Origin: Eledone cirrhosa
Taxonomy: Eukaryota
DNA: 64,000 nucleotides
Direction: 5' to 3'
Assembly: GCA_964016885.1 (NCBI GenBank)
Contig: OZ024749.1
Coordinates: 48,546,001-48,610,000, forward strand
Shown here: piece by piece, positions 11,515 through 56,985 of the stretch
How the letters are laid out: every line of letters begins with the position of its first letter
How positions within the stretch are numbered: the first letter of the stretch is position 1
Translations under genes and position numbers: made by a program
Notes under the pieces: model-generated
Databases searched by the model: none
What the model was told of the DNA's origin: nothing
What the model saw: the letters and a program-made list of their open reading frames with translations, nothing else

Positions 11515-11665
11515 GAGAGGGCGGAGATTGTTAGATAAGGAGAGATGAGAGAAAAGGAGATATATAGAGAGAGTTCGGAGATTGTTAGATGATGAGAGAT
11601 GAAAGAAAAGAAGATATATATAGAGAGCGGATATTGTTAGATGGGGAGAGATTAAAGAGATAAGA
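11515..11665. repeat. Three degenerate ~55 bp purine-rich tandem units
   Basis: CGGA(G/T)ATTGTTAGAT..GAGAGAT recurs near 11522, 11576 and 11628. Confidence 0.7.
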
Positions 11666-12100
11666 GAGAGAGAAGGAGATATATAGTGAGGAAAGAAAGG
11701 AGAAAGTGATGAGAGAGAGAAAGAGAGACAGAGAGAGAGATCGGAGTTAGTGTAGCGAGAGAAAGAGAAGTTAGAGAATAGAGAGAGAAAGAGAAACCAT
11801 CAAAAAGTGTGAAACGGAAGTGAGTTGTATCAAATAGAATTCTGGAGAGATGTTACTTCATAACGAAAAAAATATATCTAAATAAATAAATAAATAAGAA
11901 GGTATGTAATGAAATACGGAAGGCTATTTTGTCTGGAATCCTACTGATGCCGACATCCACCTTTCTAACTACGCTGATGGTGACGACGGCGAAACTGATG
12001 GTCACGTTGTTGATGCTTATGTAATTATTCAGGAAAATACTCATACACACACACACATTGTATATATATATATATATATATACATATATAATATAATATA

Positions 12101-12138
<38 letters not shown>

Positions 12139-12142
<4 letters not shown>

Positions 12143-12318
12143 GGAACGAGTAGGACCCCGACGGCTGAGCTCAAGCGGTTTCGACGAATTAGCCGTCGAA
12201 ACGGCTTGAGCTCAGCCGTCGGGGTCCTATTCGTTCCTATTACCCACTCTACTACCCTAAGTATTGAGTAATTTGATGCGTTATGGTCCACCTGGTTCCT
12301 TACCACACTTCCTTCGTT
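12139..12318 (+). mobile_element. Short element in (TA)n with a ~100 bp fold-back and the 3' half of a hammerhead motif; second copy at 51.3 kb
   Basis: ATAGGAACGA...TTTCGACG-aattagc-CGTCGAAA...TCGTTCCTAT inverted repeat. GAAACGG-CTTGAGCTCAG-CCGTC forms stem III plus a GTC site. Confidence 0.7.
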
Positions 12319-12337
12319 ATATATGTATATATATAAG

Positions 12338-12370
<33 letters not shown>

Positions 12371-12412
12371 GTGTTTGTGTATGAGCGTGCGTGTGTCTGT
12401 GTGTGTTTGTGT

Positions 12413-12443
<31 letters not shown>

Positions 12444-12761
12444 ATTAAATTTAAATCATTAACCATTTTCTTTATACCATTTGAGATGCGAACCGAGTTA
12501 ACATGTTTCATAACCTAGACTAACGTATGACACAAATCACCGGCAATAATGTTATTATTATAACGATTTGTTTTTACCGTTGTAACATTGTACTAACTCT
12601 GCGATATCATATTATTACAGTATATGTTTGGTGTTTGCATGGTCTACACGTAGTATATCAATGGTGTCTGTTGTATTGATGGCGCTGGTCGTAGTAGTAT
12701 TAGTAGTTGTAGTAGTAACAAGCTAGGGTCGTTTAGAATCGACAACATAGGGCATATCTAG

Positions 12762-12838
<77 letters not shown>

Positions 12839-12854
12839 CACACACATACACACA

Positions 12855-12900
<46 letters not shown>

Positions 12901-13156
12901 CATATGTGTGTATGTGTGTGTGTGTGTGTGTACGGGTAAATTCGAAGCTGCTTGAACTGCTATAAGTTTAACATTACCTACTTGCAGGCAGCTTCGTTAC
13001 TGTTATTGTTCGGAGCCTTATTACCATTAAAGAAATTCTAGCAAATTTGCAAAACTATTTGTCGGATTATACTAGTTCTTTTCAACTAGAGAATTAGCAT
13101 TCCGAATTTCATATCATTCTCCACAATTTATACTTGAGTAAAATTATTCATTTGCG

Positions 13157-13219
<63 letters not shown>

Positions 13220-13297
13220 TTATATGTATAATATATGTGTGTGTGTGAGAAAAACCACAGATGTGAGAAAAACCACAGACCCTCCATCTCAACTCTA

Positions 13298-13332
13298 CTT
13301 TTGAAAAGCAGAAGAACTGCGAAACCGTAAAG
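13298..13332 (+). ncRNA. Minimal type I hammerhead, U3-A8 variant, one base lost in loop III; within a ~150 bp element at 13246-13402
   Basis: CTT-TTGAAAA-GCAG(aagaa)CTGC-GAAACCGTA-AAG. The host island matches 18391-18540. Confidence 0.55.
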
Positions 13333-13395
13333 GAACCAAATAAATATATATATATTTTTTTAAAAATAAGACTCCAGTTGCATTTTCGATTTCAT

Positions 13396-13496
<101 letters not shown>

Positions 13497-14116
13497 GTGT
13501 TTGTGTGTGTGTGTGTACATGCATTTTATCTCGCGAGTCAGTTCTTTCGTTGCTACAGAACACGCGGCAGGAACTGCCGGTCGCTATCTTCAATTTGCAA
13601 ACCTCTTTAAACTGTATGTTTACTCTGAGGTCTATACCTTGTCGAGTGCTCGGCTGCACTGCTGAATGCATTCGTCAGCTTAGCTGCGGCTCGATCTTCG
13701 ACTGTGCTGTACTTTCATTTGTATATTTATATATATAAATATATATAGAGAGTTCGTTGAGATATATTTGAATATATATATGTGTGTGTGTGTGCGCGCA
13801 TGTGTGTGTGTATGTGTGTGTGCTTGTGTATTTATATACATTATAGATGATAATATGATTAAGATGGAAGAGAGGAGATACATAAGAGCTGAAGCAAACA
13901 AATGAAGGCTAATTAAGGTTAATTAATGAGTTGTGTCATTTAATAATATAAAGTTTCTCCAACATTGTCTGTGGTTAGTAACAATTTATTTATCATCACT
14001 ATTCAAAAATTGTTTTCAAATATCCATTTGTTGCTCATTTTTCTGTTTCTCTCCCTATATATGTTATTATTTTCCAATTGATTTAATCTCGTTATATACC
14101 CTAAAAAATCCCGTCG

Positions 14117-14228
14117 ATATTAACTTTGCCTTTCATCCTTTCGTGGTCGATAAAATAAAGTACAGGGGTCGATTCAATCGACTTTTCCCTCCCCCAAAAT
14201 TGCTGGCATTGTGCCTATATAAGAAACC
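14117..14228 (+). mobile_element. Partial SINE, dominant family or close relative
   Basis: TTAACTTTGCCTTTCATCCTTTCGTGGTCGATAAAATAAAGTAC...TTGCTGGCATTGTGCCTA...AGAAAC. Confidence 0.75.
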
Positions 14229-14398
14229 AGTATATACCCTAACTGTATTCTATTCTCTAACTATATTTCACATACAATGTATTTCATATGTTAAAATACA
14301 CACATGTATGTATATATACACACACATACAAATATTCAGATATACCTGCACCTCCAACCACTCGACCAACACACACAAGCAATCAATATATATACAAT

Positions 14399-14438
<40 letters not shown>

Positions 14439-14787
14439 CATATACAGGGCGTCCTCCCAACATGTATACCCACTTCAAAAGATTTCTAATAAATATTGCC
14501 TGTTCAGGTAATCAAAATATGTATACATTTGTGGGGAGGGGACCCTTTTGTATATGTATTTATAATTTTACTAATATTTGACAGAATATTTGATGAAGCA
14601 TCTAGATTTTATTTAATTATACACTATATTTATGTATTTAGCTCTATTTTTTGTTGGTGGTGGGGTTGATAGCAAATGTAAACATTCAAAAGAACACAGA
14701 GATTTGTAGCGTAGACTTTTATCAATATATATATATGTATATATATATATATATGTTTACAGTACTCAATTTTTATTAAACTGCACT

Positions 14788-14841
<54 letters not shown>

Positions 14842-15137
14842 GTGTTTGCTTCATTTTAACCAAATGACCAACTTACATGAAGTTTAAAGAGAAAAATCAG
14901 AGTCAATGTTTAAAATGCTGACCACCTTATTCAGGAGGGGCACAATTTTTAACCCCGAAAACACTCTGGAGCCTGAAAGAGTTTTTTTCTTGTGCGAAAT
15001 CATTCTGGATACGAGTCATCAGGCCAGTTGTGAAGTGGTTTGGCCTCAACCTAGGGTCACACGAAATTAACTAAAACGAAATACTCTAATGTAAGCAAAC
15101 ACACAGACACACACAAACTCACATAAATATATGCATG

Positions 15138-15264
<127 letters not shown>

Positions 15265-15283
15265 ATATATATGTATGCATAGC

Positions 15284-15406
<123 letters not shown>

Positions 15407-15802
15407 CAAGAATCCTTTTGTAAGAACTTTATAATTCCAATCCACAGATTCCTATCCATATTGTTTTCCCTTTCCGTTTTCCTCTTTTAAGCATATTTGT
15501 ATTAAATCCGTCGTTGTTATTCTAATAGATAAGTTTATTTTATTTTTCTACTTTATATCCCACGTTGCCACCACATATATTAATTAATACTGCTTCATAT
15601 ATTAGTCCCATTTAGTAAGGTTTTGTGAAATTGTTTCATTATTTTGTACGTGATATTTTTTCCTGACTATTTTTTCCAGCGTAATATAATCCTTTTTAAA
15701 TCCCGGGTCACAGGGTTTAGACTCGAGTAGCTATTACAGTTACTACAGCAACTGTATAAGCTTATCTTCAACAAGTAGAAAATTAAATAAATAATAACAA
15801 TA

Positions 15803-16150
<348 letters not shown>

Positions 16151-16496
16151 GTCAATGGATGATAATTATGATGATTAAGATGATGATGATGATTTTGTGG
16201 ATGCAGCAATAGCAACAACAACATTAAATAATTAAGTACACCCATGGTAGGGATTTAAAATGTATAAAACAAAATAAAATCAATTTAAGAGTTATAAACA
16301 AAAATAGATATATATATATAGACAAGTAATTCTCTCTAAATACACTAAAAATATTAATTAAATTATAGAAAAAAACTTCCAGATAATTAAGTCTCCTCAG
16401 ACAAAATGCATTTAAAAAAATCTTTTTTCAATCTGTGTTGAGGATAATTTAATGGGAAAAAAAGTACGAATAATAATAACAACAACCTCAAAATAC

Positions 16497-16706
16497 TTGT
16501 TTCTACATTTGCCACAAGGCCAGTAATTTTAAGAAGAGGTGAACGACGATTAAATCGACCTCAGTGCATTACTGCTGATTTATGTTTCTATCAGGTAAGA
16601 ATAAAAGACAAAACTAACCCAGTGGGATTTGGACACGGAACGTAAAGGGTCGTAAGTCTATGTCGCAAATCATATAGTCGGACGCTCTACCGATACTGCC
16701 TAGCCA
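16497..16706 (-). mobile_element. Diverged full-length tRNA-derived SINE
   Basis: TTGTTTCTAC..GCCACAAGGCCAG...CAGTGCATTACTG...CGGACGCTCTACCGATACTGCC. Confidence 0.8.
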
Positions 16707-17274
16707 CATAATAATAATAATAATTCACAGCAAAAGGAAGATGTCAAAATTGTTTTTTCGTGTGATGGGGGTGTTGTGATGCCACTTTTATGGGACCCAA
16801 ATATTTCATTAGATGCTACAATGCGTTCTCCACTCCCGATCGATGTAAGAGGAACCAGAACTTGGTGGTATTTTGAACCAGAATATAAATTCAGTACTAT
16901 TAACAGTAACACTTCTCACTGTAAACTATCGGACCCTATATGATAACTGTGGGTTATCAAATGGAACACTATGCCGGTAGGATTTTGTGAGACATGTAGA
17001 AAGAATGAATTTGCTATTTTGTAAGTTTTTCGTGAATTGTTGTATTAATGGAATATATTATACCCCATCCAGATTTTATTAGGTAGACCGTCCTATGATG
17101 AAATATATACCAAATATCTCGATCTCGTATTCTTTGCAGTATTATCCAATATATCTTGTGTATGGTATCAATTCCGAGTTAATTAACAGCTATGTCTAGC
17201 AGGTTTATTACAAACGTAGCGTCTCCTCCGTGGATATGAAGTTGTGTTTATGTAAATGTGAGTCCTGGGTGTAC

Positions 17275-17345
<71 letters not shown>

Positions 17346-17381
17346 TATATAGATAGATAGATAGATAGATAGATAGAGAGA

Positions 17382-17455
<74 letters not shown>

Positions 17456-17830
17456 GGAATGACTGAGAGAGAGAGGACATGACTGCCTGACTGACAGATA
17501 TATTTCTAAGTTTGTATATACGTGTGAATAAATTGATATAACTTATAGATTGGTGGATCGTTATGTGTATCCATTGCTTAGATTGTGAACGGATCCATAC
17601 TTATTTATGTATTGTAATGACAGAGTGTGGATCAATCATCTACTACTGTTTGGTTATAGTTGCTAGTCGAACACACGAACATAGAAAAGTCCCACTCTGT
17701 TCATCTTTCCCGATGAATAGAAACTACCATAATTTGAAGCTAACTGAACTGATTTATAACTTTCACTCTCTCACTTACTCTCTATCACCTCCCTCTCTTT
17801 CTCTCTCTCTATATATCTCTCTCTCTATTT

Positions 17831-17902
<72 letters not shown>

Positions 17903-18079
17903 CGCCCTAGGTCTTGATCTACCTTATATGATGTGTCCTATAGGAGTGTACAAATGTCATTTCGGAGTTATTTGTCCTTTATATTTAACATGATGAATGT
18001 TCATACTGAGGTACATTGCTAAGGTTGATATAACTGGTGTCTTTTTTTTTCAGTTCGAATGTGAAACTATTAAAACTTC

Positions 18080-18178
<99 letters not shown>

Positions 18179-18208
18179 TGTATATGCATATATATATACA
18201 TATATATA

Positions 18209-18393
<185 letters not shown>

Positions 18394-18433
18394 AGAAAAA
18401 CAGATGTGAGAAAAACCTCATACACTCCATCTA

Positions 18434-18469
18434 CTTTTGAAAAGCAGAAGAACTGCGAAACCGGTAAAG
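18434..18469 (+). ncRNA. Minimal type I hammerhead ribozyme, U3-A8 core variant with palindromic loop III
   Basis: Stem I CTT/AAG; core TTGAAAA; stem II GCAG/CTGC; GAAA-CCGG-TA (ACCGGT palindrome). Directly follows a (TA)n tract. Confidence 0.65.
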
Positions 18470-18836
18470 GAACCAAATAAATATGTATATATTTTTTTTA
18501 AATAAGATTCCAGTTGCATTTTCGCTTTCATCTTTTTTTTTATACATTCACTCGTGTAGGAAACCTCAGTTATTTTTCATATTGTAAAAAAAACCTCACA
18601 TTCTAATATATATATATATTTGGAAATCTCTCAGATCTCACCTTCTCTCATCGTCACTCTAAATGTCAAATGCACCCTACTCCATTTCCTTTGGGCCCCC
18701 TTTGAAAAAAAATATCTTTGAATAGCTGTACTTGTTGTTAATGTTGTTATTTTAAAATGTTCTCAAAGTTATATTTGTAGAAATATGTTTTCCTTCCAAT
18801 ATTAACATTTGTAATGCTATTTATACACACACACAT

Positions 18837-18875
<39 letters not shown>

Positions 18876-19151
18876 TTGGATCTTCCCTTTCCATTTTTTA
18901 TATTATATGTAAATGTTTCTACGTGTACGATTACTGATGAAGTTGTGGCATAATCTCCATATGTACATGCACTGAGCCGACCTATAATAAAAGTCTTCCA
19001 CCTGTCATGAACTTATCCACTGACATCGTGAATATCTGGTGAGCTATTATCCAATGTGTATGCACATTTGCAGTCGGAACGTGGCAATTTCAGAGTGAGG
19101 GGACTGAATGTTTTAGCAAATATACAATTATCCACGTAGTATCTACATGGG

Positions 19152-19292
<141 letters not shown>

Positions 19293-19294
19293 TA

Positions 19295-19356
<62 letters not shown>

Positions 19357-19392
19357 TATATATGTGTATATATATATATATACACATATATA

Positions 19393-19462
<70 letters not shown>

Positions 19463-19667
19463 CATGCATATATGTATGTATAGCTAAACATATAAATACA
19501 TATATACACATACTTACATACAAACATGTGTACTATTACCAAGTGTACAGTGAATACATTTGAGTTTTATAAGGGCAATTTTCCAATTTATAGCAAATTG
19601 GTATTTTTTAGTTTTTAGTTTTTGTCCTGTCCCTTGTTAGTTGTTCATTCTGATTCTATTGTGTATT

Positions 19668-19716
<49 letters not shown>

Positions 19717-19760
19717 CACTCATATATATATAAATAAATAAATAAATAAATATATATATA

Positions 19761-19828
<68 letters not shown>

Positions 19829-20035
19829 CATAAATACATATATATACATATATATACATATATATACATATATACATATATATATATATAATTACATATA
19901 TATATATGTATAATACATATATACATATAAACATATATGTTTATATATACATAGATATATATGGATATATATATATATATACAGATATATGCATACATAT
20001 ATATATATAGTTATATATATATATCTATCTATCTA

Positions 20036-20099
<64 letters not shown>

Positions 20100-20126
20100 C
20101 ATATATATATATATATACACATATAT

Positions 20127-20175
<49 letters not shown>

Positions 20176-20194
20176 TACATATATACATACATAT

Positions 20195-20251
<57 letters not shown>

Positions 20252-20596
20252 TACACATATATATATATACATATATATATTTATATACACACACACATAT
20301 GTAATGTGTGTGTATATATATGTACATAATTACTAATAACTAGTCTTATTTTTTCCTTATATTAATAATGTCAAATATACTTGCTGCCCATTACGTTTAT
20401 TTTATTCTTATATTTATCTATATATTTGTATTAATATATTGCCCAATTATTGCACTGAAACCAACATCAATACGGTATGTATCAATAAATATATTTGTTT
20501 TCATCTATGTATTTATTTATATGAATATAGACATATACCCTCCCATTCCCTCTACCCCTCCCTCTCTCTCTATCTCTCTCTCGCTTTATATATATT

Positions 20597-20664
<68 letters not shown>

Positions 20665-20683
20665 TATATATATATATATATAC

Positions 20684-20810
<127 letters not shown>

Positions 20811-21727
20811 CATATTTATATGTATATGCATTATGCGCTTATGTGTTTGTTGTGTGGTCGGTATGCGCCCATGTGTCCATACATATATGTTTAATGAGAA
20901 GGAGAAAGAGAAAGAGAGATGGAAATGTGTAAATGTTTGAGCGTGTGTGCACGTGTGTGTACTTTGTCTGCACATGCGCGAACGTTTGTTCATATATTTT
21001 TACTTTGAACTTTATTATTACTCTATTTTATTTCTTTTTTCAATACAAAGTTATCTAGTGTTTTTTCTCGTCCATCATATTATTTTTACAAAAATAAATA
21101 ATAGTCACAAACCAACAAACCTCGTAAAATAAAGAAAACATATTTGCTTTTTCCCTTAATGTTTATTTATATTATTTTTGCAATATCTACGCATAATATT
21201 ATTATTACTATTTTTTATCATTTTACAGAATCCTTAGAACGTTGCTCAAAATGTTTTATTTCCTTCGGCACTTCACCCTCTATTCTCAAATATAACCGAG
21301 CTCAAATTTGATATTATTATTCCGAGTTCGATGAATTAAGATAACAGTCCTGTAATGAGAGTCGTTTAATGGAATTTCCCATCCAACAAATTGCTAACTG
21401 TGAGCTTAAGTTAAATTCCGTTATTATTATTAATCTATATGTGTTATATATGTATCCACTTCCATAATGTATCACCCATTCGTACGTCAGTCGTCGACGA
21501 AGTAATTTACACAGGCGAAACATTGCAGCATTTTCCTTCCTTTGTGTGTTTAGACCTAACGTGCACATACACGCACATACATACACACTCTCATTCCCAC
21601 ACACACACACACACATATATATATATTAGAAATTAGAAATTATAAGCTTTCACCGTATTTTAGACTAAAGACATTTCTAGCCTGATAGTGGGGTTTATAA
21701 CCTCGGAGAAATGGAAAAAGATGAGTG

Positions 21728-22127: not shown

Positions 22128-22198
22128 TGTGTATTGGTGTAATGGTAGCACAGTGGTCTGGATAACCAAAGATGTGGGTTCGACTCCCATGTACAGCA
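22128..22198 (+). tRNA. tRNA-like sequence (element-borne, probably non-translational)
   Basis: A box TGGTGTAATGG, anticodon-like arm TGGT-CTGGATA-ACCA, T arm TGGG-TTCGACT-CCCA, partial acceptor pairing TGTAT/GTACA. Confidence 0.6.
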
Positions 22199-22763: not shown

Positions 22764-23977
22764 TCTTCCATATTATAAACCTCAAAACAGAGTCGACACC
22801 CAAATGTATATGAACATCTCTAAGGGAAACGTAAAAAAACTAATGCGGAGAAGAATGAAAGGAAGTATGCGAGACAGATTCAATGGAAGGAATGCAGAAA
22901 GAAGCAATAAAATAAAATAAACAAATGATTATCTTATGTGTGGAACTAACAACTTAACTAGTGAAGTTGCGTTAAATATGTTGTTTACCGACGTTTAAGA
23001 TAAGAAACACACTTGCTTAGTATCTTGACTGATAATAGTTTCGCCCGGTGCTTCACTTCATTTTATTTAGTTATGTATAAGTGGAACTATTTTATATGTC
23101 AGGTTCGTGGACTGGTAGGTTCTCTATAGCATCATACTACAATAGGATTTGCTGCATTTTGTTACTGGAATCTTTGAGATAAAATCCCATGAAGGTTAAT
23201 TTTGCCATATTTTGGTCAAGTACTAGGGAATTTTATATCACTTGTTGCCCATTTTCTCCTTCCAGTTTTACATAAAAAAAATAGCCTTCCCAATAATCCT
23301 TACTCGCAACGATCTCATTTCAAATCCCGCAGAAGCTAATTTTAACCTTCATCCTACCAGAGTCAATTTCATGAAGTACCACTGAAGTACAGAAAGCTTT
23401 ATAATCGGTTCGCTTTCGCAAAGTTACTGGCAGTGTGCCTAAATTAGAAACAATTATTTAATACTTAATATATTTGATGCTACGGCTGTAAAGCTGCTGG
23501 AGTTTCTCTGCTGATGTTTCTGCTACTCATACTACTGCAGCTATAACCAGGGCTGCTGCAACTGTTTTCCTTTTAATTTTTGATATTATTTATGATTTTA
23601 TGAGAAACTATAGAAAGTAAAAATGCTTTGCCTCTACTCAGTTGATTTCGTGAAATACTTTACGGAATGAACACGATGAAAACTTACATGTCTATGTCTA
23701 CCACTATATATGTTGTTGTTACCATTGAAATAAAAAAAGTCCTAGGCCTGTAAACGTCACTATTAAAGAAAGAACTGTTAGTATGAACTATTTATTCACT
23801 GAAAGACCATTGTGAATGTATAAAAGAGTTATTGTTTTTATAATATGAGGTTTATTTCGATTTTATAAATTATAACGAATCTGAAATCATAACGTCGTCC
23901 CTATCGTCCACCTTCTTCGAACATTACATATGTAAGAATGTATGACAATTCTTTTATCTATCAATACATATATAAAC

Positions 23978-24075
<98 letters not shown>

Positions 24076-24154
24076 TGTTCTATCCACATATACATAGCTG
24101 TCTGTCCAATCAACTCTCTCTCTCTCTCTCTCTCTCATTCTCTATGTATATATA

Positions 24155-25079
24155 TAAAGCAGGCTACCTCAACAAAATAGAGTACATAGATGGGAACAAT
24201 CAAAACACCCAAAATAAATCCCACATAGGTAGATATAATAACACAACACCAAACCACACTTACTACCATAGTATGCACACCAGTAAACCAACAAACAAAA
24301 CTAATAGAAAGCGATGCAAAGAGTACTTATGGTATAACCCCGAATACAATAGCTCCATTAGTACAAATTTACCAGTACTCTTCTTTAAAATAATTAAAAG
24401 ACATTTTCCCACATCACACAAATACCACAAAATCCTAAACCCTACCACTATAAGACTGTCATACTCTACAGCGTTAAACCTTGAACAACACATAAAAAAG
24501 ATCAATACTAGAAGGTTAAACGAAAACACTAAGAACTTAAGTACAAAGAACCCCAAAAAAACAGTAGACAATACACTACAGAACATAAATAAACCACACC
24601 TAAGTTCGTCCGCAATACTACTCCAGAGAAAACCCAACGTACACAACTGTAACTGCACCTATCCTGACAACTGCCCCCTCGGCAATAACTGCCTGGAAAA
24701 AAATATTATTTATAAGTGTACCATTAAATCCGGAGGCAACGAGTGGTATTACGTGGGATCAACGGCAACATCGTTTAAATCTCGATTGTATAGGCATTCT
24801 TACTCAATAAAACACCAGAGCCAAAGAAATGTAACAACTTTAGCAGAGAAAGCTTGGACGATCAGAGATAGCAATCAAAAGTTTACCCTAAAATGGGAAA
24901 AATTAGCTAAAACCCAAAGCTTTTCCAGGAGCCAAAATTTCTGCAAATTGTGTAATCTTGAGATTTATTACATAATCACACACAAGAAGAAACTGCTGAA
25001 TAACAGAATTGAACGAACATTATTCTGCCGTCACAGAACTAAAACCCTTTTTTCCCACTACAAGCCGAATATTACATAA
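24155..25079 (+). mobile_element. 5'-truncated Penelope-like retroelement (Neptune-type): RT thumb/linker plus GIY-YIG endonuclease ORF remnant
   Basis: Open frame of ~308 codons with LWYNPEYNSSISTNL..FFKIIKRHFP..HKYHKILN..TIRLSYS, Zn motif CNC....NCPL...C, GIY-YIG-like NIIY...YYVGST..FKSR..H, CKLCNLE, LLN.R.E and CRH. The predicted ATG comes from the flanking microsatellite. Confidence 0.88.
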
Positions 25080-25191
25080 AAGAGGGACATCCCCCAACTA
25101 TATAAACCTTAATCTAGTTAGAAAAATATAAAAACAATCTCTTTTCAACATATATTAATAACCTTAAATTACCATACTAATAATGAAAAGA

Positions 25192-25249
25192 TATGCTGAT
25201 GAGAATAGGTACAAATATGCGATAATGAATGTGTCTAAAAACGTCCATA
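25192..25249 (+). ncRNA. Decayed hammerhead ribozyme in the 3' pLTR of the Penelope-like element
   Basis: TATG-CTGATGA-(long stem II)-AAAACGTC-CATA, ~115 nt after the ORF stop. G12 is mutated. Confidence 0.6.
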
Positions 25250-25348
25250 AGTATGTATATATATGTGAAAATGTATATAAATAAGTAAATATATATATAT
25301 GTTTGATGTGTATAGTTAGATGTAAGTGTATTCATGTATTAAAGTGCT

Positions 25349-25383
<35 letters not shown>

Positions 25384-25406
25384 ATATGTGTGTATATATG
25401 TATGTG

Positions 25407-25437
<31 letters not shown>

Positions 25438-26028
25438 GTATATGTATATATGTATATATATATGTGTATGTATGTATGTGTATATGGATGTGTATGTATG
25501 TGTATGTGTGTACACATGGACTAGAGTATGTATGTATATATGTGTGTGTCTATACGTGTGTATATATAAAGATAAGTTGAGTATGAAAATGTATACACAT
25601 GAGCGCGTATGTATGTACATGAATACATGTGTGTATATATATGTGTATGCATGTGTATATATATGTAAGTATGAATATGTGAATTGTGAGTATATGTATT
25701 TTGTAGAGGTGTGCAAATATATTTGTGTGTGAATGCGTGGGTGAAAGAATACGTACACTTGAAAGAAAAATTTAAGTCTGAATGTTAAGTGCAAACACAA
25801 AACCAACCACGCATATCTTTACTATCTCTAATCCTTCTATAGATTTAGAAAAATAACCAATAATATATTCTATAAAAAATGTCAAAACAACAGATGGGAA
25901 TCTAATTAATCACTGCCACCAAGAATTCTCACTGCTATCGAAAAACCACTCCTTCAACTATTCTTCTAACAACTTCACCCCTTCCTCCTAATATTCTCTA
26001 TAAAAACTAAATAGGTCCTCAGTAATAT

Positions 26029-26074
26029 TATTCTGATGAAATGACAGTAAATAATAACATTGAAATATTGAATG
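26029..26074 (+). ncRNA. Minimal type I hammerhead motif
   Basis: TATT-CTGATGA-AATG(14 nt)CATT-GAAATATTG-AATG; palindromic AATATT; G at the cleavage position. Confidence 0.55.
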
Positions 26075-26291
26075 TCTGCATAACTAAAAGTTTGTAGATA
26101 GCTGTTTTAGGTTATGTAACTGTTATAGAAACACGTGTCAGTAAATTCCTTTCAACTAAACTGTATCCATTCAAATCTTTCTATTTTTCTCCGGATTACT
26201 TTTGGAACTACAACTGGAACCGTCGAGCAAACTCTACGTGAGCTGATAATCTACTGTGTGTAATATTTATATTACAACACAACGGAAAATA

Positions 26292-26351
<60 letters not shown>

Positions 26352-45349: not shown

Positions 45350-45491
<142 letters not shown>

Positions 45492-45493
45492 AA

Positions 45494-45594
45494 CATCCCG
45501 GGTTCAACCGAGGGTAACCACAGTAAGTAAGGTACTCCTGATGATTTCTCCGGAATTAAACAGTTCTAGTCCCGTATAAGCCTTTCTTTATTAA

Positions 45595-45597
<3 letters not shown>
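45494..45597 (+). ncRNA. Deleted and mutated copy of the 56.5 kb hammerhead element
   Basis: CCGGGTT.AA.CG..GGTAACCACAGTAAGTAAGGTACTC joined to CTGATGATTTCT...TAAACAGTTCTAGTCC.GTA. It lacks the 5' stem I arm and has GAAA->TAAA. (TA)n on both sides. Confidence 0.7.
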
Positions 45598-54086: not shown

Positions 54087-55140
54087 GTGGTCTAAAATCC
54101 ATATTAACATCATATGAGACCCGGATAGTAACACTGAAGCAACATCTTCAACAGGTTTATGAGCATGAAGAAAAAAATATCATTAGGATAGCCACTGATC
54201 TGTAGGAGAGATATAGAATAAAGGCTGATATAAATCTATCACCCAGAGAAATCGGAAGATCCTATTCAATGTTCAATCAAGATGAAAAAAATGACCAATT
54301 TACAGAAAAAGTTGTGCATGGATACTTGATACGTAAAACACAGACCATAGATGGGATAAACCACTCAAAAAGCATGGCATGGTGTTCCGACAAGTTTATG
54401 ACATCACACCTTGAGGGATATCTCTATGCAATACAGGAACAATAACTCCCTACCAAAAGAGGAGGGCTATCAGCTGACAATAAATGCAGGCTATGTAAAA
54501 CAAAGATCGAAGATGTAAGCCACATAGTTGCCAGCTGCGAAAGAATGTCATCTCGCTACTACCTCACCATGATACACGATAGGATAGCTAGAACCATCTG
54601 GAACGCACTTCGGAAAACAAAATTTAAAACAAACGAGGAAGAATATATTGAGACAGAGGGCACTAAGGAATACTGGTGTAACCTGAAAATAAAAACTGCC
54701 ACCAAATTAAAGCACAACCGGCCTGATTTTGTTGTTTGGGACCACACATTGAACACTTGTTCTGTTGTGGAGATCAGCTGCCCACTTGATGTAAAAGTTG
54801 TCAGAAAAATACAGGAGAAGGAGGACATCTACGGACCATTGATGAGGAGTTTACAAATCCAGTATCCAAGATACACTTTTAGCTTCATACCCATCATTAT
54901 TAGAGCTACGGGGGATATACCAACTCGCTTGGACCAATGTATAACTGAACTTGGATTTGCGCACAAGGAGAGCAGCTCCCTAATTCATAGTCTACAAATG
55001 GCTGCGATAGCTGGCACCGTCAAAATTTGCAAAGCATTCTTGCGATTCAAGGGATGACAACTTCTTTTCTTTTACAACCTTGCCACCAGGAAGATGGCCG
55101 GTCAAAAATATACTCGAAATTAGGAGAAAGAGATAATATA
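54087..55140 (+). mobile_element. 5'-truncated, disrupted R4/Dong-like non-LTR retrotransposon (restriction-like endonuclease) in (CATA)n
   Basis: RGLKS...HG...EGYLYAIQE...CRLC....EDVSHIVASC (CCHC knuckle), IHD (RHD motif), HNRPDFVVWD...VVEISCP (RLE), IPIII.A.G. In-frame stop at 54203. 3' UTR runs into CATG/CATA repeats. Confidence 0.85.

Positions 55141-56340: not shown

Positions 56341-56348
<8 letters not shown>
55862..56348. mobile_element. ~490 bp element bounded by perfect 45 bp inverted repeats, containing a hammerhead ribozyme
   Basis: ATATGTTGAGAAGGTAACACACCAGAGAGAGATATATGGTGCGCT (55862-55906) is the exact reverse complement of 56304-56348. The right end abuts (TA)n. Confidence 0.85.
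56102..56182 (+). ncRNA. Type I hammerhead ribozyme, intact core
   Basis: Stem I ACACACG/CGTGTGT; CTGATGA; stem II ACC/GGT; GAAA; stem III ACA(T)ATC/GAT(T)TGT; GTA site with predicted cut after 56175. Confidence 0.82.
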
Positions 56349-56439
<91 letters not shown>

Positions 56440-56506
56440 CGTTATTCCGGGTTGAATCGGAGGTAACCACAGTAAGTAAGGTACTCAATACATAGCAGAG
56501 TATAAC

Positions 56507-56585
56507 AGTTTTAATATAGAAGAGATTCCTGATGATTTCTAATGAATGAAACAGTTCTAGTCCTGTAGAATCTCTTCTATATTAA

Positions 56586-56589
<4 letters not shown>
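56507..56589 (+). ncRNA. Type I hammerhead ribozyme with a perfect 22 bp stem I
   Basis: AGTTTTAATATAGAAGAGATTC pairs with GAATCTCTTCTATATTAAAACT; CTGATGA; weak stem II (T.T then TTC/GAA); GAAA; stem III ACAG/CTGT; GTA site with predicted cut after 56567. Confidence 0.82.
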
Positions 56590-56628
<39 letters not shown>

Positions 56629-56629
56629 A

Positions 56630-56673
<44 letters not shown>

Positions 56674-56985
56674 TTATATATATATATATATATATATATA
56701 TAAGTAGATACTTTCATGGATTTTATTATTTGTGTTTTGGGCCATGTTTGGGCAACGTGGCTACAATGGCATTCCTGCTTAAGGACGTAGATGTACATTT
56801 TGAACTAGTTTCAGAAATCGAGCAATGGTCACAAAGGATTACTAATCAACCATACTAAGAATCGTGTGCAGAAAAGGACACGAAGAATTAAGGTCAAATA
56901 TTAGACGTATTGATAGATGGTTTATTGACATTATAGAATGATTGATGGCAACATATATATTTATGCAAGTATATATGTATATATA

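What the first reader, a model, noticed from the sequence alone, without database searches (positions are those of the whole stretch)
56440..56590. Complete hammerhead clamped by a perfect 22 bp stem I in a 150 bp (TA)n insert
Seen: intact CTGATGA/GAAA/GTA core, 4 bp stem III, and an unusually long perfect stem I that runs to the (TA)n junction. The base of stem II is T.T rather than the usual G-C. The sister copy at 45.5 kb lacks the 5' arm and differs in the 3' arm. Inference: either the family uses a long helix in place of tertiary contacts, or the arm arose by fold-back copying at insertion. This is the best candidate for an active monomeric ribozyme.
Basis: partly seen in the sequence, partly recalled or inferred. 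Interest (0 to 1): 0.75.

Follow-up and report, generated by a model that had tools for sequence, protein, structure and literature searches.

The report
Head-to-head Hydra retroelement stub
The hammerhead ribozyme motif and its 22-base-pair stem are really there, but the long stem is the seam where two short end-pieces of a very abundant Penelope-like jumping gene are joined head to head, likely a by-product of one insertion rather than a special ribozyme design.

Summary
The 150-bp insert is two pieces of the end repeat (pLTR) of a Hydra-clade Penelope-like retroelement, joined head to head in (TA)n. The minus strand 56528-56440 equals native +1..+89 after the cleavage site (0/89 mismatches). 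The plus strand 56523-56588 equals native -45..+21 (0/66). They overlap in the native 6-bp stem I. The family has 11,584-21,556 cores and a full-length RT/GIY-YIG copy; only 46 carry this exact seam. The inverted half holds a 68-nt tail that the core half lacks, so simple fold-back copying cannot explain this copy. Two cDNAs joined at stem I, or later deletion from a full palindrome, can. T.T under stem II occurs in 14 of 25 published Hydra hammerheads. Side result: family copies pile up starting at stem I, often with an extra G, about 30 nt below a TATA box, likely the capped RNA start; none of 100 starts at the cleavage site. The scan noted such stubs and the extra G before on other DNA. Cleavage is untested.

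The parts
56345..56439 (.). left (TA)n target microsatellite
   Evidence: TRF array, period 2, 47.5 copies
56440..56528 (-). inverted half: native pLTR +1..+89 after the cleavage site (3' strand of stem I, 3' arm, tail)
   Evidence: 0 of 89 mismatches to native copy L084
56440..56507 (-). 68-nt 'tail' (+22..+89), present on one half only; long end of the insertion
   Evidence: 3' ends cluster near +21 and +89 (17 and 14 of 54 halves at the two modes)
56523..56528 (.). seam: native 6-bp stem I 5' strand, shared by both halves; likely first six bases of the element RNA
   Evidence: RNA start inferred
56523..56588 (+). direct half: native pLTR -45..+21 with the complete type I hammerhead core
   Evidence: 0 of 66 mismatches to L084
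56529..56567 (+). hammerhead core, 3-bp stem II on U10.1.U11.1, 4-bp stem III with 8-nt loop; predicted cleavage after 56567
56507..56589 (+). apparent 22-bp stem I = 6 native pairs plus 16 pairs made by the inversion
56589..56702 (.). right (TA)n target microsatellite
45490..45597 (+). sister stub of an older subfamily: inverted tail piece joined directly to a decayed core starting at 45538

Best explanation
The insert is two short pieces of the end repeat of a Hydra-clade Penelope-like retroelement joined head to head inside a TA repeat, and the 22-bp stem is the seam between them, likely made as a by-product of one insertion. Shown: the two halves, their native coordinates, the 6-bp native stem, the parent element and the rarity of the seam. 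Inferred: the element's endonuclease cut (TA)n; its reverse transcriptase made two cDNAs from one uncleaved RNA, starting at two fixed sites (+21 and +89); the short-start cDNA ran to the RNA's 5' end at stem I. The two 3' ends then joined through the self-complementary 6-7 bases of stem I, or a full palindrome later lost the ~50 bases between its two same-strand copies of that hexamer. The copy lacks the upstream promoter region and ORF and is likely dead. If transcribed, it would likely behave as a slow minimal hammerhead.
For: Exact two-piece match to a native pLTR. Full-length pLTR-ORF-pLTR parent in L061 with Hydra diagnostic motifs. 11,584 and 21,556 exact core matches versus 46 exact seams. 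The 30 seam copies fetched mix five loop-2 alleles and both tail orientations (21 inverted side, 9 core side), which points to repeated independent origin. In head-to-head pairs the two halves share alleles (loop 2: 47 of 49 distinct junctions; arm +8: 27 of 27), as for one template. Among all 88 junctions of this size class, 47 are the perfect-stem type and the rest are scattered, as microhomology predicts (hand count). Inverted 5'-truncated partners, one-sided tails and (TA)n targeting are described for PLEs (PMC8557442 passages). Two internal RT start sites and both-strand priming were shown in vitro for another PLE (PMC11167929 parts 1-2).
Against: The route (cDNA joining versus later deletion) cannot be told from this locus. 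For the 9 of 30 seam copies with the tail on the core half, fold-back remains possible. The clamp does raise predicted folding into the hammerhead (5% versus 0.003-0.7%). Pfam barely recognises the parent ORF (GIY-YIG E 0.012, below cut-off, no RT hit); clade assignment rests on motifs and a by-eye comparison with published alignments, with no tree.
Confidence: 0.9

Rival explanations
1. The long stem is a family design that replaces tertiary contacts and gives an active monomeric ribozyme.
For: Intact core, 4-bp stem III with a loop long enough to close as a monomer (8 nt, against 1-3 nt in the published Hydra table). Higher predicted folding. Natural U10.1.U11.1 hammerheads exist (PMC3088659 passage).
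Against: Native stem I is 6 bp with compensatory changes across subfamilies (5 cells changed on both sides, 3 of 500 shuffles as high; 11 hand-picked related rows). 46 seams versus at least 11,584 cores. The extra 16 pairs are an exact inverted copy of downstream sequence.
Confidence: 0.03
2. A single cDNA folded back on stem I and copied itself, making the arm.
For: Palindromes at PLE inverted junctions have been read as self-priming (PMC3846280 passage). The geometry fits the 9 of 30 seam copies with the tail on the core half.
Against: In this copy and in 21 of 30 seam copies the inverted half carries 68 nt that the core-bearing half does not contain.
Confidence: 0.03
3. The inverted half is a run-off copy of the ribozyme's 3' cleavage product, so the seam records self-cleavage in vivo.
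For: The inverted half can be read as starting exactly at +1. 7 genomic copies start at +1 against (TA)n.
Against: The overlap makes any end from +1 to +7 look the same. Among 88 junctions, only 1 ends at +1 without the overlap, against 3, 1, 1 and 2 at the next four positions (hand count). 0 of 100 tail-anchored copies start at +1 (18 unresolved). About 41 TA-abutting starts at stem I are extrapolated from 13 of 100 rows, against 7.
Confidence: 0.04

Closest known systems
Hydra clade of C-terminal-EN Penelope-like elements (Craig et al. 2021, PMC8557442; abstract, passages, section 11, supplement part 2 and passages read), e.g. Hydra-1_Obim, Hydra-1_Amil, Penelope-13_HM
   Same: Parent ORF of about 713 aa with RW(R), DKT, CxCx5C linker, CxxC and CxH around the conserved E/N; (TA)n targets; type I hammerhead in the pLTR, often with T.T under stem II; inverted 5'-truncated partner and one-sided tail.
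   Different: A different family from Hydra-1_Obim (different hammerhead). Tail is 68 nt rather than 30-40. Loop III is 8 nt rather than 1-3. More than 20,000 hammerhead cores in the genome.
PLE hammerheads (Cervera and de la Pena 2014, PMC4209133; parts 1-2 of 4 read)
   Same: Short helix I with poorly defined loop 1; many solo or opposite-strand copies; partly palindromic loop III that could pair as a dimer (duplex -13.4 versus hairpin -1.7 kcal/mol).
   Different: A real 4-bp helix III with 8-nt loop; stem II only 3 bp without G10.1-C11.1.
Poseidon PAc of Anolis (Frangieh et al. 2024, PMC11167929; parts 1-2 of 4 read)
   Same: Two RT start sites bounding the tail; AT-rich target; unprocessed RNA as the template.
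   Different: Different clade; there the hammerhead overlaps the start codon, here it lies about 135 nt upstream of the likely ATG.
Metazoan non-LTR retrozymes (bioRxiv 10.64898/2026.07.22.740005, part 1 of 5 read; PMC7229834 listing only)
   Same: Non-coding, PLE-related, type I hammerhead.
   Different: This is not a tandem array of units and shows no sign of self-propagation.

Membership tests
Hydra-clade PLE (parent family) | single ORF with RT and C-terminal GIY-YIG endonuclease between pLTRs | tested here: met
   L061: core, tail, 758-aa open frame, core; YRDD and IVY..YIG motifs; Pfam GIY-YIG only weak, E 0.012
Hydra-clade PLE (parent family) | RWK motif and DKT in place of DKG | tested here: met
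   RWR (conservative variant) and SDKT in P0001
Hydra-clade PLE (parent family) | CxCx5C linker, with CxxC and CxH around E/N | tested here: met
   all three present in P0001
Hydra-clade PLE (parent family) | absence of the CCHH motif in the endonuclease | tested here: inconclusive
   two Cys lie between IVY and YIG but 8 residues apart, not CxxC; judged by eye
Hydra-clade PLE (parent family) | (TA)n insertion preference and canonical hammerhead in pLTR | tested here: met
Hydra-clade PLE (parent family) | phylogenetic placement of RT in the Hydra clade | not tested
   no reference proteins held as sequences; by-eye likeness to supplement alignments only
Type I hammerhead ribozyme | conserved core C3-A9, G12-A14, A15.1-U16.1, NUH triplet, three stems | tested here: met
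Type I hammerhead ribozyme | G10.1-C11.1 pair | tested here: not met
   U.U here; a known natural variant and in 14 of 25 Hydra families (hand count)
Type I hammerhead ribozyme | loop 1 / loop 2 tertiary contact | tested here: not met
   this copy has an unbroken helix; a possible distal stem in native copies is not conserved across subfamilies
Type I hammerhead ribozyme | site-specific self-cleavage | not testable with these tools
   needs an in vitro assay
Non-LTR retrozyme | tandem units each with a hammerhead | tested here: not met
   single head-to-head stub

The most novel reading that the evidence does not exclude
The capped RNA of this Hydra element starts at the first base of hammerhead stem I. 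Self-cleavage would then cut off a 45-nt capped leader and switch the message off, only uncleaved RNA would be copied, and the thousands of stubs are run-off copies from two RT start sites to the cap. Seams like this one would also create clamped, monomer-competent ribozymes by accident.
Probability: 0.4. Interest if true: 0.55.

Novelty: new member of a known kind. Interest (0 to 1): 0.24.

Why it matters
The locus itself is ordinary retroelement debris, and a warning that perfect long stems around genomic hammerheads can be inversion seams. The family is more useful. With over 10,000 near-identical young stubs, it maps where reverse transcription starts (two sites) and stops (likely the RNA cap), and suggests that the hammerhead sits at the very front of the transcript yet is copied uncut. 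The role of PLE hammerheads is called unclear in PMC8557442; this family makes it testable.

Tried and rejected
Rfam: no hammerhead among the 150 listed of 238 window matches; weak HH9 only. A DNA search with the 64-nt tail found nothing because common words are skipped; uninformative. No RNA holder listed; the guessed-RNA run gave only low-identity scraps on the parent and nothing on the insert: no evidence on expression either way. Contigs of three other runs cover both halves and show the native continuations as loose ends, but none spans the whole insert. My early idea that native copies have a Schistosoma-type distal stem I with internal loop was dropped: not conserved across subfamilies. 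Folding numbers for stem III were wrong (index error) and are replaced; only the duplex figure is used. PDB search of the ORF: nothing below E 0.07. Lunse et al. (PMC5785218) was not held. Top hits are biased toward copies with junction inserts and were left out of the unbiased counts. Assembly artefact rejected: 46 seams with different flanks and alleles. Supplements of the bioRxiv retrozyme preprint were not seen.

Full report
Observation. The fold is far beyond chance (z -6.75). Numbering below: +1 is the first base after the cleavage site; the native 5' strand of stem I is -45..-40.

Family. The window lies in a 3.0-Gb genome rich in microsatellites, probably of an animal. Earlier scan notes call it cephalopod-like; I did not test that. 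A 32-nt core pattern has 11,584 exact matches and a looser one 21,556. Thirty unbiased loci show the native order: upstream region with a TATA box, 6-nt stem I strand, core, 21-nt arm, 68-nt tail, then 5' UTR and ORF. L061 holds pLTR-ORF-pLTR. Its protein has RWR, DKT, YRDD, a CxCx5C linker, a GIY-YIG-like domain and CxxC/CxH, the features listed for the Hydra clade, whose members almost all insert in (TA)n (PMC8557442 section 11). In that paper's hammerhead table, 14 of 25 Hydra families have T.T under stem II (hand count), so this oddity is common in the clade.

What the insert is. The minus strand 56528-56440 is native +1..+89 with 0 of 89 mismatches. The plus strand 56523-56588 is native -45..+21 with 0 of 66. 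The two share the six bases 56523-56528. So 6 pairs of the stem are native and 16 are made by the inversion. Native stem I shows compensatory changes across subfamilies (2 pairs and 5 cells changed on both sides in 11 selected related rows; stems II and III invariant and so uninformative). The exact seam occurs 46 times. In the 30 fetched, loop-2 alleles are mixed and the tail is on the inverted half in 21 and the core half in 9, so the seam likely arose many times. Among all 88 junctions with an inverted half ending near stem I, 47 are this type (hand count), as expected where 6-7 bases of self-complementarity favour joining. The sister at 45.5 kb is the same kind of stub from an older subfamily with a broken core.

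How it likely formed. 3' ends cluster at two places, about +21 and +89. Halves of a pair share alleles (47 of 49 and 27 of 27). This matches the two internal RT start sites and both-strand priming shown for another PLE (PMC11167929). Simple fold-back of the core-bearing cDNA cannot give this copy, because that strand has no tail to copy. Joining of two cDNA ends at stem I, or later deletion between the two same-strand hexamers of a full palindrome, both fit and cannot be separated here.

Is it an active ribozyme? Untested. For: the core is intact, loop III is long enough for a monomer, the predicted hammerhead fraction is about 5% against 0.003-0.7% for native contexts (secondary structure only), and U.U variants occur in nature. 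Against any special status: 83 of 119 sampled cores are equally intact. There is no loop 1 for tertiary contacts, which matter at low Mg2+ (PMC3088659 and PMC6155905 passages). Helix I above about 6 bp is reported to slow standard hammerheads (PMC544870 passage). The TATA region is gone. Metazoan PLE hammerheads tested so far are slow or need protein. No RNA data could be brought to bear.

Side result on the family. 5' ends pile up at stem I: 66 of 127 halves end at -46..-36, 6 at -59..-47, 43 further upstream, 12 inside the core (loci from the first 54 Mb of one contig). In 100 tail-anchored copies, 37 end at -46..-36 and none at +1; 18 diverged copies were unresolved. Where the base before the stem is not the genomic C, it is G in 79 of the first 100 of 2,065 (hand count), though some of these G's come from the partner by overlap. 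In 50 of 303 symmetric junctions listed, the spacer is CWG in 19, a single G/C in 14, never empty; 45 have a G next to the stem on at least one reading, but in the 14 single-base cases that base can also be the genomic C of the partner (hand count). The same CWG spacer occurs in 3 of 14 junctions of an older subfamily; in the two checked, the arm would not template a G by fold-back. A TATA box lies 29-33 nt upstream in 34 of 36 distinct native upstream regions. Untemplated G is the accepted sign of cap copying in LINE-1 and SVA (PMC4859970 passages). I infer a capped start at stem I (about 0.7); 1-2 base fold-back remains a partial rival in the young subfamily. Starts at the cleavage site are rare (7; 1 of 88), so the copied RNA was likely uncut. 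D. virilis Penelope has a TATA-less internal promoter with the start upstream of an intron (PMC2377424 passages); a TATA/Inr pair is noted in a rotifer pLTR (PMC3846280 passage). My searches (listings plus the papers named) showed no paper placing the start at stem I, but the library is partial. The scan's own notes report it in other genomes; these are not independent support.

Verdict. A real hammerhead motif in an ordinary dead stub of a new Hydra-clade family; the striking stem is a seam. Interest 0.24.

Noticed in passing
window 23976-26300: 3' part of a second, distant Hydra-type element (36% identity over 256 aa to P0001, CxCx5C linker), with a TA block in its 3' UTR and a hammerhead-like core from 26033, ending at (TA)n near 26295.
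   Followed up: partly
window 54446-55057 +: 203-aa frame that looks like the C-terminal zinc-finger/restriction-like endonuclease end of a non-LTR retrotransposon (weak zf-RVT, E 0.006; motif reading recalled).
   Followed up: partly
L007, L009, L016, L017, L042 flanks: Another short (TA)n-inserted family often sits next to these stubs; it shares an 11-nt motif with the tail and often ends in long palindromes. A similar motif ends the published Hydra-2_Amil: a possible RT recognition signal.
   Followed up: no
L061 3715-4360 and L068: The parent's 3' UTR is interrupted by kilobases of TA-rich repeats and nested elements, so full-length copies span about 6 kb.
   Followed up: no
L272, L276, L278: Older-subfamily halves with internal deletions that remove most of the core between two short direct repeats.
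   Followed up: no
window 22128-22196 +: tRNA-like match above Rfam's gathering score (41.3 bits), possibly a SINE head.
   Followed up: no
core loop III, 56555-56562: Partly palindromic 8-nt loop; two copies of stem-loop III pair at -13.4 kcal/mol versus -1.7 as a hairpin, so dimer cleavage is possible.
   Followed up: partly
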